DNA of 4,522 nucleotides. It comes from a virus. Taxonomy: Duplodnaviria; Heunggongvirae; Uroviricota; Caudoviricetes. The position numbers were made by a program, and so were the translations under genes. Shown in pieces: positions 1 through 4,522 of this stretch. Location of the stretch: the IMG/VR virus record IMGVR_UViG_2597490224_000009, positions 1-4,522 of that record. One strand, written 5' to 3'. The notes under the pieces were generated by a model that worked only from the letters and a program-made list of their open reading frames with translations, was not told the origin of the DNA and ran no database searches. Each line of letters begins with the position of its first letter. Positions within the stretch are counted from its first letter, which is position 1.

Positions 1-16
1 CAGTACGCGGTTCATT

Positions 17-154
17 TCACCACCAGCGTATCTGACCGATGAAATAACCAGAGGCCATAATCACAAACACCAGCCAGATAAGAATGAACTTCCAGGTGGA
101 TAATTTTTCAGCCATCACTCGAATCTCCCGAATCAGTTTGCTAAAATCAAACAC
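17..154 (-). CDS. hypothetical small membrane peptide (~45 aa, single predicted TM helix); alternative ATG start at 115 would give 32 aa
   Basis: Read by hand from the minus strand (too short for the ORF track). GTG at 154 is preceded by AAGGAG with a 5-nt spacer; an in-frame ATG at 115 is preceded by GGGAG. Translation ...MAEKLSTWKFILIWLVFVIMASGYFIGQIRWW then TGA at 17-19: a charged N-terminal stretch followed by a ~20-residue hydrophobic segment. Lies just downstream of the terminator that follows the endolysin. Confidence 0.3.
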   Translation of the reverse strand: MFDFSKLIREIRVMAEKLSTWKFILIWLVFVIMASGYFIGQIRWW

Positions 155-190
155 ACTTTCTCCTTTGACTTTTCCGGAGTCAGGAAACAC

Positions 191-223
191 AAAACCCCGC
201 TTGGTGCCAACAAACGGGGTTTT
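191..223. terminator. putative bidirectional intrinsic terminator
   Basis: Inverted repeat AAAACCCCG (191-199) / CGGGGTTTT (215-223) with a GC core, A-run on one side and T-run on the other, so a T-tract follows the stem on both strands. The loop is large (15 nt), hence moderate confidence. Sits ~90 nt downstream of the endolysin stop. Confidence 0.5.
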
Positions 224-313
224 TACTTTTATTCACTTACGTTTCGCCACTTCGCAGGATTTCATGTTATCCGCCCGCGTGGCCATGCCTTATTTTTCAG
301 CAAAATATTCTGC

Positions 314-847
314 TTATCTGTCGATACCCCAGCACGCCAGCGCGCTCTCCTGGTCACGACGGGATACCTGACCGTAGCAGTTGTTTGAACGAATACGGCA
401 GTCTCTGCCACCGTCCTTAATCCACCAGCGAATCGCCTCACACGCTCCCCTGCGATCACCTGCATTAATTCGTTTATAAAACGTCGACGGGAAACACTTA
501 CCGGGACCAATGTTGTACGGACAGAATGACGCGATCCCCGCTTTCTGGGGTTCGCTCAATGGCACTTTGATGTTTTTCTCCACCCATGCCAGCGCCTTAT
601 CACGCTCAATGGCGTTGACCTGGTCGCATTTTTCCTTCGACAGTTTCATACCGGGAAAAACGGGTTTTCCATCCACCATCGTGGCCCCCCGACAGATGGT
701 CCAGTTGCCGGAACCATCGCGGTATGCCGTAGTGTGGTTACCCTCTTTTTCATCCAGAAACTGGTCAAGTATCTGAGGAGCTGATGCGCCTGCTCCAATC
801 AGCGCCAGAACTGCAGCTGACAGGCCGTATTTGATTTTTGCGTTCAT
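314..847 (-). CDS. phage endolysin, GH24 lysozyme with N-terminal SAR (signal-arrest-release) domain; RrrQ / phage 21 R-like
   Basis: 177-aa ORF. The N-terminus YGLSAAVLALIGAGASAP is a Gly/Ala-rich weakly hydrophobic segment typical of SAR endolysins. It is followed by the T4-lysozyme-type catalytic spacing E-x8-D-x5-T (DEKEGNHTTAYRDGSGNWTICRGAT). Length and sequence match my recollection of E. coli Qin-prophage RrrQ (177 aa). Confidence 0.9.
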   Translation of the reverse strand: MNAKIKYGLSAAVLALIGAGASAPQILDQFLDEKEGNHTTAYRDGSGNWTICRGATMVDGKPVFPGMKLSKEKCDQVNAIERDKALAWVEKNIKVPLSEPQKAGIASFCPYNIGPGKCFPSTFYKRINAGDRRGACEAIRWWIKDGGRDCRIRSNNCYGQVSRRDQESALACWGIDR

Positions 848-952
848 GGATATTTATCAGGATTTATCGGTTTCTGAACCCTGGATATGTTTATCTGTCC
901 CGGCCTGTTGAATCAGGCGGGGAAAAGGTAAAGACAATCAAGAGGATTATTT

Positions 953-1225
953 ATGGACAATAGCACCATTTCTCTACAGGAGTTGCTCGACTGCATTTCC
1001 AGGCTTCGGGATGATGTAAATGCCCTCACTGTTGCATTTTCACATCTGGCCTTATCAATTCCCAGGGAGCAAATGCTGCCAACGCTGGCATCCATTCATT
1101 TTGAATCACGCAACCCCAAATGGTCCCAGGAACAACAAAATTCTTTCAAGTGGCTGGCGGCATTGCTGGAAGAAAATTATGCTGGCAAAACTACCATTTC
1201 GGCGGAGTCTTCAGGGAACCAGTAA
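953..1225 (+). CDS. hypothetical protein (90 aa), antisense to the lysis genes, no recognisable family
   Basis: Complete ORF with a well-placed RBS (AAGAGGA ending 7 nt before ATG 953) and TAA stop at 1223-1225. No TM segment or signal peptide; predicted soluble, probably helical. Lies in a ~330-bp segment present beside endolysin copy 1 but absent from the equivalent position beside copy 2. Confidence 0.5.
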   Translation: MDNSTISLQELLDCISRLRDDVNALTVAFSHLALSIPREQMLPTLASIHFESRNPKWSQEQQNSFKWLAALLEENYAGKTTISAESSGNQ

Positions 1226-1325
1226 TCCTTCCCGGTAGCTTTCCTTTGTAGGTTATCCATACATTCTGCGCCTCTAAAATTACGGGGCGCTTTTCCGGCG
1301 ACTGCTCATCCCCTTCACATAACCC
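1197..1325. repeat. direct repeat copy A (~129 bp, near-identical to 1824-1952)
   Basis: Hand alignment: 1197-1325 matches 1824-1952 with about 3 mismatches, all near the left end. Copy A runs directly into the N gap, so its true extent is unknown. Confidence 0.85.
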
Positions 1326-1335
1326 NNNNNNNNNN
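1326..1335. other. assembly/scaffold gap (run of 10 N)
   Basis: Ten consecutive n characters in the sequence; the 185-aa track ORF 1191-1748 reads through it (XXXX). Confidence 0.95.
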
Positions 1336-2449: not shown

Positions 2450-3502
2450 TTATTTCCCCACCAGCTCGTTTATCTCTTTCACTGTCTGGTTAAACCGCTC
2501 TGACTCAAGCTCAACACCTAAGGCCCGACGCCCCAGCGCCATTGCTGCTTTTATTGTGGAACCGGATCCCATAAAAAAATCAGCAACCAGATCACCAGGT
2601 CGACTACTGGCATTGATTATTTGCCTGAGCATATCCGCCGGTTTCTCACACGGATGTTTACCCGGGTAGAACTGAACGGGTTTATGCATCCAGACATCGG
2701 AATAAGGCACGGAGACTGATACGGAGAAATAGCGCCGGAGAGATTTAAACTCATCCAGCAATTCAGAATATTTGCGATTCAGTGAATCATAAGATGCCAC
2801 CAGCTGGTGGTGTGGTTGTTCCAGTTGTTGTTCCTGAAACTTCTCTGCCGCTATACGGGAAAACAGTGCCTGTAACTTCCGATAGTCAGCCTCATTCGGC
2901 AACTGCCACTGACTGGCACCAAACCAGTGGGAAACCATATTTTTCTTACCTGTGGCTTCGGCAATTTGTTTTGCCGTTATACCCAGTTCGGCACGAGCAT
3001 CCCTGAAATACGATATCAGCGGTGCCATTATGTGCTGTTTGAGTTCCCTTTCTTTTGCCGCATAGCCGTCACTTTTGCCGCGATATGGCCCCTGGTAATG
3101 TTCAGCAAACAGAACGCGCTCTGTGGCAGGAAAATATGCGCGCAGACTTTCTTTATTACACCCATTCCAACGTCCGGACGGCTTCGCCCAGATGATATGG
3201 TTAAGCACGTTGAAACGTTCACGCATCATGATCTCAATATCAGATGCCAGGCGATGCCCACAGAACAGGTAAAGGCTTCCGGCAGGTTTTAACACCCGCC
3301 AGAACTGGGCCAGACAGTGGTCCAGCCACTTAAGGTAATCTTCGTCCCCTTTCCACTGATTGTCCCAACCGTTGGGTTTCACCTTGAAGTACGGCGGATC
3401 GGTAACAATCAGGTCAATGGAATCATCAGGCAGGGACTGAATAAAATGCAGGCAATCAGCGTTGATTAAATCAACACTGTTTATTTTTACAGTATTTTTC
3501 AT
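2450..3502 (-). CDS. DNA methyltransferase, beta-class amino-MTase (N6-adenine or N4-cytosine), apparently orphan
   Basis: 350-aa ORF with motif IV DPPY near the N-terminus (IVTDPPYF) and the AdoMet-binding motif I FxGxG near the C-terminus (DFFMGSGST). The IV-then-I order defines the beta class. No restriction endonuclease candidate adjoins it in the window. Weak SD. Confidence 0.9.
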
Positions 3503-4126: not shown

Positions 4127-4522
4127 ATGAATAAAATGACTGTACTATTACTTAGCGCAACTATCATTTCAGGTTGTACTTCTTCCGTACCATTGATAAA
4201 AAAAACTCAATCAGGAAAACCTGAGGGGGTTTATCAAAATACGACAAAAGATAAAGTCAAAGATGCCCTTGTGAATTACTGCAATAGTAGAGGGTTGATA
4301 ATTTACAACGCTGATAACAGCAGTGTTATATGTGGTAAAGAACTGGAAGGCGGGTCTGCTGTTTTTGGACAAATGTTAATCGGCAATGCCTATTCAACAA
4401 CCCCGGTATCAAAAGTCAGATTTACTATCGCTCAAGTTAATAACGATACAAAAGTGTGGGCCGATATGTGGATGGAAACTCAAATGGCAATGGGGCAAGT
4501 ACAACAAATGGCTATAACAGAC
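4127..4522 (+). CDS. putative lipoprotein, 5' partial view (132 codons, continues beyond the window)
   Basis: Hand-read ORF, absent from the track because it has no stop inside the window. N-terminus MNKMTVLLLSATIISGC is a classical lipoprotein signal peptide with lipobox ISG-C; the +2 residue is Thr, not Asp, which suggests outer-membrane sorting. The gene is visibly more AT-rich than the rest of the window. Confidence 0.7.
   Translation, partial: MNKMTVLLLSATIISGCTSSVPLIKKTQSGKPEGVYQNTTKDKVKDALVNYCNSRGLIIYNADNSSVICGKELEGGSAVFGQMLIGNAYSTTPVSKVRFTIAQVNNDTKVWADMWMETQMAMGQVQQMAITD

What the first reader, a model, noticed from the sequence alone, without database searches (positions are those of the whole stretch)
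1..313. No Rz/Rz1 spanin genes after the endolysin; a terminator and a 45-aa TM peptide occupy that position
In lambdoid lysis cassettes of Gram-negative hosts, including phage 21 and the Qin/DLP12 prophages, the endolysin is normally followed directly by Rz with Rz1 embedded in it. Here the 313 bp downstream of endolysin copy 1 hold no Rz-like ORF in any minus-strand frame. They contain a bidirectional terminator (191-223) and then a well-initiated small ORF (17-154) encoding an amphipathic N-terminus plus one TM helix. This could be a moron such as a type I toxin-like peptide, or a non-canonical outer-membrane disruption factor replacing the spanins, as described for a few spanin-less phages. 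Alternatively the spanin genes may simply lie beyond coordinate 1.
Basis: partly seen in the sequence, partly recalled or inferred. Interest (0 to 1): 0.6.

Follow-up and report, generated by a model that had tools for sequence, protein, structure and literature searches.

The report
Spanins present; mobile small-peptide cassette
The spanin genes are not missing (Rz starts at base 15 and runs off the left edge of the window), and the gap between endolysin and Rz holds a conserved, mobile cassette of a hairpin terminator plus a 45-codon membrane-peptide gene of unknown function, which many temperate phages carry in their late operons.

Summary
The terminator hairpin (191-223) and the 45-codon ORF (17-154, minus strand, GTG start, AGGAG Shine-Dalgarno) are real. 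"No spanins" is a window-edge artefact. Bases 15-1 encode MNRVL, the start of a lambda-type Rz. Window 1-1325 is 100% identical to E. coli UTI89, where a 154-aa Rz (PF03245) with embedded Rz1 (PF06085) follows 1 nt after the small ORF's stop.

The small ORF is a real gene (dN/dS 0.07-0.29 with near-saturated dS; 175 of 177 copies intact). It belongs to PHROG 6632, function unknown, and is present in H-19B and many Stx phages.

Hairpin, leader, non-ATG start and ORF travel together as a cassette. It lies mostly between endolysin (four families) and Rz, but also between baseplate genes, next to tape-measure genes and at the end of a head-gene cluster, in Enterobacterales, Pseudomonas and marine phages. 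It is therefore neither a spanin substitute nor lysis-specific.

The best reading is a moron-like late gene for a tail-anchored inner-membrane peptide, reached only by terminator-resistant late transcription.

An unproven extra: invariant synonymous sites form an antisense extended -10 promoter. That would give a roughly 80-nt cis-antisense RNA ending at the same hairpin, a type I toxin-antitoxin-like arrangement.

The parts
1..15 (-). First five codons (MNRVL) of the i-spanin gene Rz; the rest of Rz, with Rz1 embedded in it, lies left of the window.
   Evidence: Translation of window 1-15, minus strand. The identical UTI89 locus has a 154-aa Rz at L001 5551-6015 (PF03245, E=1.4e-52; phrog_13) and a 60-aa Rz1 at 5613-5795 (PF06085, E=5.4e-20; lipobox VVGC).
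17..154 (-). 45-codon gene (GTG start) for a small tail-anchored membrane peptide, MFDFSKLIREIRVMAEKLSTWKFILIWLVFVIMASGYFIGQIRWW. It belongs to PHROG 6632. Its TGA stop is 1 nt before the Rz ATG.
   Evidence: ORF list. phrog_6632 E=1.2e-29 over the full length. dN/dS 0.07-0.29. 175 of 177 copies intact. Annotated as WP_000459345.1 / CAH23245.1. Hydropathy.
160..164 (-). Shine-Dalgarno sequence AGGAG, 5 nt upstream of the GTG start.
   Evidence: Read directly from the sequence. A GGAG/GGGAG motif is kept in most of the 13 diverged copies, with variants such as GGAAG in E. ictaluri and GGGTGG in one CD306-type copy.
165..190 (-). Conserved leader: a U-run (TTTTGTGTTTCC) followed by a short second stem-loop that abuts the Shine-Dalgarno sequence.
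   Evidence: Alignment of 13 modules. In helix 2, 3 of 5 pairs show changes on both sides.
191..223 (.). GC-rich hairpin with A-tract and T-tract flanks, i.e. a bidirectional intrinsic terminator. It always travels with the ORF.
   Evidence: Terminator scan. Covariation: 6 of 11 pairs compensatory, 93% of cells paired. RNAalifold consensus structure. More stable in the ORF (sense) direction in all 13 copies.
119..147 (+). Hypothetical antisense promoter inside codons 3-12 of the ORF: -35 TCGAAT (119-124), TG (139-140), -10 TAAAAT (142-147). The predicted RNA would run from about 153 to about 230 on the + strand and end at the hairpin.
   Evidence: Inference only. The synonymous sites that make up TGCTAAnnT and TCG are kept in nearly all diverged copies, including GC-rich Pseudomonas and marine copies. 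The tool's standard -35/-10 scan does not call this site, and there is no Rfam family.
314..847 (-). 177-aa phage lysozyme with a weakly hydrophobic N-terminal segment (SAR-type by appearance); the gene upstream of the cassette.
   Evidence: PF00959 E=4e-24; phrog_7.

Best explanation
This is an ordinary lambdoid lysis cassette (holin, YdfR-like gene, lysozyme, Rz/Rz1). Its spanin genes begin at window base 15 and continue leftwards out of the window.

Between lysozyme and Rz sits a compact mobile cassette. In the direction of late transcription it consists of:
1. a GC-rich hairpin with U-runs (an intrinsic terminator),
2. a leader of about 35 nt with a Shine-Dalgarno sequence,
3. a GTG-initiated 45-codon gene.

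Shown: the gene is real, and it encodes a peptide with a conserved amphipathic N-terminal helix (D3, S5, K6, I8, E10, R12, M14, L18) and a variable C-terminal membrane anchor.

Inferred:
- The cassette has no room for a promoter between hairpin and Shine-Dalgarno sequence. The peptide would therefore be made only when terminator-resistant (Q-antiterminated) late transcription reads through the hairpin, i.e. late in lytic growth.
- Here its translation would be coupled to Rz, because the stop and the Rz ATG are 1 nt apart and TGGTGGTGA doubles as the Rz ribosome-binding site.
- The same cassette sits in tail and head operons elsewhere. The peptide would therefore be an accessory, moron-like late membrane protein that acts through its cytoplasmic helix on a host or phage membrane-proximal target. 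It is not an outer-membrane disruptor, a spanin substitute or an endolysin-specific regulator.

Its molecular target is unknown.
For: Spanins are present:
- MNRVL at bases 15-1.
- Window 1-1325 is 100% identical to UTI89, where Rz and Rz1 follow.
- H-19B, CP-1639, TL-2011c and FSL SP-016 show the same order: R, cassette, Rz.

The ORF is a real gene:
- dN/dS 0.07-0.29 with about 20 of 28 synonymous sites changed.
- 175 of 177 copies are intact, and within that set the start codon is always GTG or TTG.
- PHROG 6632 match.
- 89 homologues in Enterobacterales, P. aeruginosa and metagenomes, all unnamed.

The cassette is a unit. Homology starts just 5' of the hairpin and ends at the stop codon in all contexts. 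Hairpin covariation is reached by 0 of 500 shuffles.

Contexts:
- Roughly 130 of about 175 copies are followed after 1 nt by the Rz ATG.
- Upstream lie four unrelated endolysin families.
- The cassette also occurs between baseplate V and W-like genes in SEN34, Rac-SA53 and Yersinia similis.
- It occurs in the tail region of Pseudomonas phage YMC11/02/R656.
- It occurs between tail chaperone and tape measure, after the tape measure, and at the end of a head-gene cluster.

No promoter-like site was found on the ORF strand.
Against: - The left flank of the actual source contig was not seen; Rz and Rz1 are inferred from 15 bases plus identical genomes.
- Neither read-through of the hairpin nor late expression has been measured.
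- A strong sense terminator inside tail operons would be polar unless those phages antiterminate, and this was not checked.
- No function, partner or phenotype is known for the peptide.
- The tight 1-nt junction with Rz in most copies could still mean a spanin-related role in that context.
- Conservation of the A-tract and of ATAAAGC on the 5' side of the hairpin, and of several synonymous sites in codons 3-12, is not explained by this model alone.
Confidence: 0.75

Rival explanations
1. The cassette is a type I toxin-antitoxin-like pair. A constitutive extended -10 promoter on the opposite strand, inside codons 3-12 (TCGAAT, 17 nt, TGcTAAAAT), would make a roughly 80-nt RNA. That RNA is perfectly complementary to the start codon, Shine-Dalgarno sequence and leader, and would terminate at the same hairpin. 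It would silence leaky expression of a membrane-active peptide until massive late transcription overwhelms it, or it would act in trans.
For: - TGCTAA(A/T/G)(A/C)T is kept in all 16 diverged representatives and in 6 further Pseudomonas-type and marine copies, even though the codon-4 amino acid changes (F/I/L), and in GC-rich genomes.
- Ser5 is always AGC, one of six possible codons.
- Arg12 is the rare CGA codon in 30 of 31 unique sequences and in all Pseudomonas-type copies, whereas Arg9 uses CGG, AGG, CGC or CGT.
- The unrelated B-family ORF that shares the same leader has antisense TATACT at the same nt 8-13.
- The A-tract and ATAAAGC on the 5' side of the hairpin, which would give a U-rich tail in the antisense direction, are conserved and mark the cassette's left boundary.
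- The peptide is under 60 aa with one transmembrane segment.
Against: - There is no transcript evidence.
- The -35 is weak (3-4 of 6), and the tool's promoter scan does not call the site.
- G.U pairs favour the sense-strand hairpin, 11 versus 2.
- There is no promoter for the putative toxin.
- There is no Pfam, NCBIfam, PADLOC or Rfam similarity to any known toxin or antitoxin.
- Conservation is concentrated in the cytoplasmic helix rather than the membrane segment, unlike pore-forming toxins.
- AT-rich, conserved early codons can reflect translation-initiation constraints, and E10 GAG is also invariant although it lies in the spacer.
- None of the EcOnc sites from the Hfq-CRAC study of EHEC that were checked maps to a cassette of this kind; only the Sp10 and Sp6 prophages of Sakai were inspected, and both lack the A cassette.
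Confidence: 0.2
2. The small ORF is only a translational coupling device: a leader ORF that reloads ribosomes after the hairpin and delivers them to Rz. Its peptide product would have no function.
For: - A 1-nt stop-to-start spacing with Rz in roughly 130 of about 175 copies.
- The last codons, TGG TGG TGA, form a Shine-Dalgarno-like GGTGGTGA for Rz.
- The unrelated B-family ORF ends with the same IRWW-TGA-N-ATG junction.
Against: - Protein-level purifying selection across the whole ORF.
- A conserved N-terminal motif.
- The same ORF occurs where no Rz follows: in baseplate, tape-measure and head contexts, or followed by other small ORFs.
Confidence: 0.04
3. One reading: the cassette lacks spanins, and the 45-aa peptide is a non-canonical outer-membrane disruption factor (disruptin-like) that replaces them.
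For: Only the absence of a full Rz ORF inside bases 1-313, and the amphipathic N-terminus of the peptide.
Against: - The Rz start codon is in the window, and Rz and Rz1 follow in every identical genome and in related phages.
- The N-terminal net charge is only about +1, so the peptide is not strongly cationic.
- The peptide also occurs in tail and head operons.
Confidence: 0.01

Closest known systems
Lambdoid lysis cassettes of phage H-19B, CP-1639 and other Stx phages (S, R, Rz/Rz1)
   Same: Same gene order and 93-95% DNA identity over window 1-313, including the hairpin and the 45-codon ORF between R and Rz. Rz and Rz1 are lambda-type (PF03245, PF06085).
   Different: In phage lambda (from my own knowledge of the lambda sequence) and in K-12 Qin, the endolysin gene overlaps or abuts Rz with nothing in between. 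Here about 300 bp are inserted. GenBank records mostly leave the small ORF unannotated or call it hypothetical.
Morons of lambdoid phages (Juhala et al. 2000, as cited in PMC4104026): extra genes inserted between late genes
   Same: An extra small gene, present or absent among otherwise related phages, inserted between conserved late genes at several positions and co-oriented with the operon.
   Different: Classical morons carry their own promoter and a downstream terminator and are expressed from the prophage. This cassette has the terminator upstream, no detectable promoter, and a non-ATG start in nearly all copies (a few Pseudomonas-type copies start with ATG).
Type I toxin-antitoxin loci with a cis-antisense RNA over the ribosome-binding site (hok/sok, symE/symR, ibs/sib)
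   Same: A small hydrophobic peptide under 60 aa. A possible short antisense RNA would cover the Shine-Dalgarno sequence and start codon and end at a Rho-independent terminator.
   Different: There is no toxin promoter and no homology to any known family. The antisense RNA and toxicity are unproven. The conserved part of the peptide is cytoplasmic rather than membrane-embedded.
Accessory small membrane proteins of lysis cassettes (Mu gp25 releasin, PMC9239132; antiholins)
   Same: A small single-pass membrane protein encoded next to an endolysin with a SAR-like N-terminus.
   Different: There is no sequence similarity. The cassette occurs with at least three endolysin families that lack a SAR-like N-terminus and also outside lysis cassettes, so it is not tied to SAR endolysin release or to one holin type.
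Disruptin (phage phiKT gp28) in spanin-less phages
   Same: A small amphipathic peptide encoded in a lysis cassette.
   Different: Spanins are present here. The peptide has a membrane anchor and low net charge.

Membership tests
Two-component spanin system (Rz/Rz1) downstream of the endolysin | An i-spanin gene encoding an N-terminal transmembrane segment plus a periplasmic coiled-coil domain (Pfam PF03245). | tested here: met
   Window 15-1 encodes MNRVL. In UTI89, which is 100% identical over window 1-1325, the ORF continues for 154 aa. PF03245 E=1.4e-52; phrog_13 E=1.2e-73.
Two-component spanin system (Rz/Rz1) downstream of the endolysin | An o-spanin lipoprotein gene embedded in the +1 frame of Rz, with a lipobox. 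| tested here: met
   L001 5613-5795 encodes a 60-aa protein with lipobox VVGC. PF06085 E=5.4e-20. It lies outside the window, so it is inferred for the source.
PHROG 6632 (phage protein family, function unknown) | Full-length profile match. | tested here: met
   E=1.2e-29, residues 1-45 against profile positions 1-45. The CD306-type variant gives E=1.4e-13.
Type I toxin-antitoxin system | A small hydrophobic membrane peptide (under 60 aa, one transmembrane segment). | tested here: met
   45 aa; Kyte-Doolittle maximum 2.5 over residues 23-39.
Type I toxin-antitoxin system | An antisense RNA antitoxin with its own promoter and terminator that pairs with the toxin mRNA. | tested here: inconclusive
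   A conserved antisense TGcTAAnnT and TCG, plus a bidirectional hairpin. There is no transcript evidence, a weak -35, no call by the promoter scan, and G.U pairs that favour the sense strand.
Type I toxin-antitoxin system | The toxin gene has its own promoter and its product is toxic when expressed. | tested here: not met
   Promoter part: no promoter-like site on the ORF strand, and only about 35 nt between hairpin and Shine-Dalgarno sequence. Toxicity is not testable with these tools.
Type I toxin-antitoxin system | Homology to a described toxin or antitoxin family (Hok, Ldr, Ibs, TisB, ShoB, Zor, DinQ, SymE; Sok, Sib and others). | tested here: not met
   No Pfam, NCBIfam or PADLOC hit at E<=0.1-1. 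No Rfam hit except a chance rimP match at E=0.76.
Moron (own promoter, gene, own terminator, inserted in a late operon) | An extra gene inserted between conserved late genes, variably present among related phages. | tested here: met
   At least five insertion contexts. At the same R-Rz junction, the alternatives are nothing (K-12 Qin), B- or C-family ORFs, or ant.
Moron (own promoter, gene, own terminator, inserted in a late operon) | Own promoter upstream and own terminator downstream, allowing expression from the prophage. | tested here: not met
   The terminator is upstream of the ORF. No promoter-like site was found. The downstream gene starts 1 nt after the stop.
Spanin-less lysis with a disruptin-type peptide | Absence of spanin genes, with a cationic amphipathic peptide taking over outer-membrane disruption. 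| tested here: not met
   Rz and Rz1 are present. The N-terminal net charge is about +1.
Holin, antiholin or releasin-type lysis regulators | Sequence family membership, or strict linkage to a holin or SAR endolysin. | tested here: not met
   No match to any PHROG or Pfam holin family. The cassette is linked to four endolysin families and at least three holin types, and it occurs outside lysis cassettes. A functional role is not testable here.

The most novel reading that the evidence does not exclude
The hairpin-leader-ORF unit is a previously undescribed, horizontally mobile two-gene cassette of temperate-phage late operons. It would encode a tail-anchored peptide made only from terminator-resistant late transcripts, overlapped at its 5' end by a constitutively transcribed cis-antisense sRNA of about 80 nt. 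The sRNA's promoter would be written into synonymous sites of codons 3-12, and its terminator would be the same bidirectional hairpin.

That would make it a type I toxin-antitoxin-like or sRNA-gated module spread across Enterobacterales, Pseudomonas and marine phages. The R-Rz junction would then be a hot spot that collects such small membrane-peptide cassettes (A, B and C families).
Probability: 0.25. Interest if true: 0.6.

Novelty: new member of a known kind. Interest (0 to 1): 0.33.

Why it matters
As posed, the finding is an edge artefact: this prophage has ordinary lambda-type spanins, so it says nothing new about spanin-less lysis.

What remains is a widespread, strongly conserved small membrane-protein gene with no assigned function:
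- About 16-20% of complete E. coli genomes carry it.
- It is present in Stx1 and Stx2 phages, including H-19B.
- It also occurs in Salmonella, Citrobacter, Edwardsiella, Yersinia and Pseudomonas phages.
- Annotation often misses it.

Its fixed architecture (terminator first, non-ATG start in nearly all copies, no promoter) and its mobility between lysis, tail and head operons make it a tractable example of how phages add small late genes. If the antisense promoter is real, it would also be a new sRNA-plus-peptide module. Because Stx phages carry it immediately before Rz, it could influence lysis timing and therefore toxin release, but that is speculation.

Tried and rejected
- Rfam at E<=1 over the whole window gave only a chance rimP-leader hit (E=0.76) over 158-233.
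- Pfam, NCBIfam and PADLOC gave nothing for the A, B or C peptides.
- Literature searches:
  - "between R and Rz" returned nothing relevant.
  - Searches on lysis cassettes and SAR endolysins found no description of this ORF.
  - A search combining sRNA, spanin and endolysin found nothing.
- Known prophage sRNAs:
  - PasA, PasC and PasD lie upstream of the holin. The RefSeq phages cited for the Pas sRNAs (NC_011356, NC_049945, NC_049952) are absent from my 53 ORF-A hits.
  - AsxR and AgvB are Rfam families and were not hit.
  - The EcOnc sites of Tree et al. 2014 that I checked do not match. EcOnc11 lies 3' of Rz in Sakai Sp10, and EcOnc33 lies at the esterase gene in Sp6. Those two prophages carry ant plus a C-family ORF instead of this cassette.
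- The supplements of the Sakai ribosome-profiling paper (PMC5597208) contain none of the peptide strings.
- The + strand ORF 84-371, annotated in CP-1639, was rejected as a gene: it runs through the hairpin and the endolysin 3' end and is broken in SP-016.
- The + strand promoter-like site at 32-61 found by the scan was rejected because its -10 is not conserved in SP-016.
- The idea of a SAR-endolysin-specific partner (releasin-like) was rejected because of the endolysin families without a SAR-like N-terminus and the tail contexts.

Full report
**Observation**

The window's left end was read and all ORFs listed.
- On the minus strand the 177-aa lysozyme gene (847-314; PF00959, phrog_7) is followed by about 90 nt.
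- Next comes a 13-pair GC-rich inverted repeat at 223-191, flanked by an A-tract and a T-run.
- About 35 nt further on are AGGAG (164-160) and a GTG (154-152) that opens a 45-codon ORF ending with TGA at 19-17.

**Spanins**

- The 15 bases left of the small ORF's stop read, on the minus strand, ATG AAC CGC GTA CTG = MNRVL.
- Window 1-900 matches 129 E. coli records at 99% identity or more. Window 1-1325 is 100% identical to UTI89.
- In UTI89 and ST95-32 this ATG opens a 154-aa "lysis protein". It is a lambda-type Rz (PF03245 E=1.4e-52; phrog_13) with a 60-aa lipoprotein ORF embedded in it (PF06085; lipobox VVGC).
- H-19B, CP-1639, TL-2011c, many Stx1 and Stx2 phages and Salmonella phage FSL SP-016 have the same order: R, hairpin, small ORF, Rz.
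The only caveat is that I could not see the actual source contig left of base 1.

**The small ORF is a gene**

- It matches PHROG 6632 (function unknown) over its full length, E=1.2e-29. It has no Pfam, NCBIfam or PADLOC match.
- RefSeq sometimes annotates it (WP_000459345.1), and CP-1639 calls it a "putative bacteriophage protein".
- Among 177 copies in the loci I fetched, 175 are intact at 42-45 codons. Every start codon in that set is GTG or TTG; a few Pseudomonas-type copies fetched later start with ATG.
- Between diverged lineages about 20 of about 28.5 synonymous sites differ while dN stays at 0.12-0.26, giving dN/dS of 0.07-0.29.
- The invariant residues (D3, S5, K6, I8, E10, R12, M14, L18, F23, W27) lie mostly in the amphipathic N-terminal helix, while the hydrophobic segment varies.
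- This suggests a tail-anchored peptide that works through its cytoplasmic helix.
- A profile search found 89 relatives in Escherichia, Salmonella, Citrobacter, Enterobacter, Klebsiella, Providencia, Trabulsiella and Pseudomonas aeruginosa (one form on 497 contigs) and in metagenomes. All are unnamed.

**The hairpin belongs to the ORF**

- In alignments of 13-16 diverged copies, homology begins a few bases 5' of the hairpin's A-tract and ends at the stop codon.
- The stem sequence differs between lineages but pairing is kept. 91% of cells are paired, and 9 of 16 pairs show changes on both sides. No shuffle of 500 reaches the observed covariation, and all slid registers score far lower.
- RNAalifold returns the same hairpin.
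- G.U pairs are tolerated in the ORF-sense RNA (11 cells) far more than in the antisense RNA (2 cells). The sense hairpin is the more stable one in all 13 copies. Selection therefore acts at least on the mRNA-sense structure, which is a terminator shape followed by UUUUcUGUUUC.

**Contexts**

- Downstream, roughly 130 of about 175 copies are followed after exactly 1 nt by an Rz ATG. Another 36 are followed by a different small membrane ORF.
- Upstream, about 95% have an endolysin. These belong to four unrelated families: the 177-180-aa lysozyme with a SAR-like N-terminus, a 138-aa NNNPGNIR type, a GH108-like type and a GH19-like type by appearance.
- The same cassette also sits in several non-lysis positions:
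  - between baseplate V and W-like genes in Salmonella phage SEN34, E. coli phage Rac-SA53 and a Yersinia similis prophage;
  - in the tail region of Pseudomonas phage YMC11/02/R656;
  - between tail chaperone and tape measure, after the tape measure, and at the end of a head-gene cluster in metagenomic phage contigs, one of them from Tara Oceans.
- It is always co-oriented with the late genes. It is therefore a mobile, moron-like insertion, not a lysis-specific gene and not tied to SAR endolysins.

**Most likely mechanism**

- There is no room and no signal for a promoter between hairpin and Shine-Dalgarno sequence. The ORF can therefore only be transcribed by polymerase that passes the hairpin.
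- In lambdoid late operons that is Q-modified polymerase (established lambda biology).
- The peptide would then be a late protein. In this prophage its translation would run directly into Rz: stop and start are 1 nt apart, and TGGTGGTGA serves as a Shine-Dalgarno-like sequence.
- These steps are inferred. Only the anatomy and the selection are shown.

**An open extra**

- Several synonymous positions in codons 3-12 do not vary even though synonymous sites elsewhere are near saturation:
  - GAT at codon 3;
  - the third-position T of codon 4, although its amino acid changes among F, I and L;
  - AGC at Ser5;
  - the rare CGA at Arg12, while Arg9 uses CGG, AGG, CGC or CGT.
- This holds in GC-rich Pseudomonas and marine copies too.
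- On the opposite strand these positions spell TCGnAn, 17 nt, TGcTAAnnT, an extended -10 promoter. Its transcript would start at about the ORF's start codon, be complementary to the Shine-Dalgarno sequence and leader, and end at the hairpin and its conserved U-rich far side. It would be about 80 nt long.
- The unrelated B-family ORF that uses the same leader has antisense TATACT at the same offset.
- This would resemble a type I toxin-antitoxin layout.
- Against it:
  - there is no transcript evidence, and the -35 is weak;
  - the hairpin is biased toward the sense strand;
  - there is no toxin promoter and no homology to known systems;
  - early-codon conservation has other common causes.
- I give the type I toxin-antitoxin reading 0.2, and 0.25 to the broader reading in which the antisense RNA merely gates the ORF or acts in trans.

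**Comparison and novelty**

- The lysis cassette itself is the known H-19B / Stx-phage type.
- The cassette resembles a moron but fails two of the three defining features (own promoter, downstream terminator).
- It resembles a type I toxin locus in peptide size and possibly in the antisense RNA, but fails on toxin promoter and homology.
- It is not a disruptin, holin or releasin by any test I could run.
- I file it as a new, uncharacterised member of the broad class of small accessory late genes.
- Overall interest is low to moderate. The headline is refuted, but a common, conserved, unannotated gene next to Rz in Stx phages, with an unusual fixed architecture, is worth a bench test.

Noticed in passing
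window 1326-1335, 435-734 vs 1336-1635, 1196-1325 vs 1823-1952: A run of 10 N separates two blocks. Window 1-1325 is 100% UTI89-like. The right block carries a second endolysin copy (86% identical, 3' end missing) and a second YdfR 3' end (97% identical). No complete E. coli genome is colinear with the whole window. The two endolysin copies therefore look like a scaffold join of two different lambdoid prophages, not a tandem duplication.
   Followed up: partly
L008 2323-2475; L009 2096-2659; L010 2171-2499; L179 2622-2771: The R-Rz junction is a hot spot for other small single-pass membrane ORFs. The B family (phrog_4493/1115, e.g. MRKYKRFF...IRWW) uses the same hairpin and leader. The C family (phrog_4906, MSDKLIT...) also occurs there. 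Up to four are packed in tandem in strain CD306. Sakai Sp10 and Sp6 instead carry an antirepressor gene plus a C-family ORF. All are of unknown function.
   Followed up: partly
window 953-1225 (+): A 90-aa ORF (phrog_2411, no Pfam match) lies on the opposite strand between the YdfR-like gene and the endolysin. It overlaps the YdfR 3' end convergently. RefSeq annotates it as hypothetical (WP_001351274.1).
   Followed up: no
window 4128-4522 (+): An ORF running off the right end starts MNKMTVLLLSATIISGCTSS, a lipoprotein-type signal with a lipobox. It sits upstream of, and divergent from, the late region, so it may be a moron-like lipoprotein.
   Followed up: no
L013 2640-3101 (Edwardsiella ictaluri): After the cassette there is a lipobox ORF (2800-3081) embedded in a 106-aa ORF (2781-3101) that looks like a different spanin pair. 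I could not find an N-terminal membrane segment for the putative i-spanin; the start may be miscalled or the gene degraded.
   Followed up: no
L176 2671-2787 (Pseudomonas phage YMC11/02/R656): The Pseudomonas copy of the cassette is followed by another small hydrophobic ORF of 38 aa. This echoes the tandem small-ORF arrays seen in E. coli.
   Followed up: no
L179 about 3320-3370 (Sakai Sp10, 1946819-1946867, minus strand): The Hfq-bound candidate sRNA EcOnc11 (Tree et al. 2014, Table S2) maps just 3' of Rz and antisense to the late operon. EcOnc10 and EcOnc12 have near-identical read scores and may be copies in Sp12 and Sp9. The site is outside the window, but it shows convergent sRNA genes around lysis cassettes.
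   Followed up: partly
L005 2915-3568 (CP-1639): In CP-1639 the cassette and Rz lie directly downstream of stx1AB, with no holin or endolysin annotated in between. That suggests a deletion or rearrangement of S and R in that prophage.
   Followed up: no
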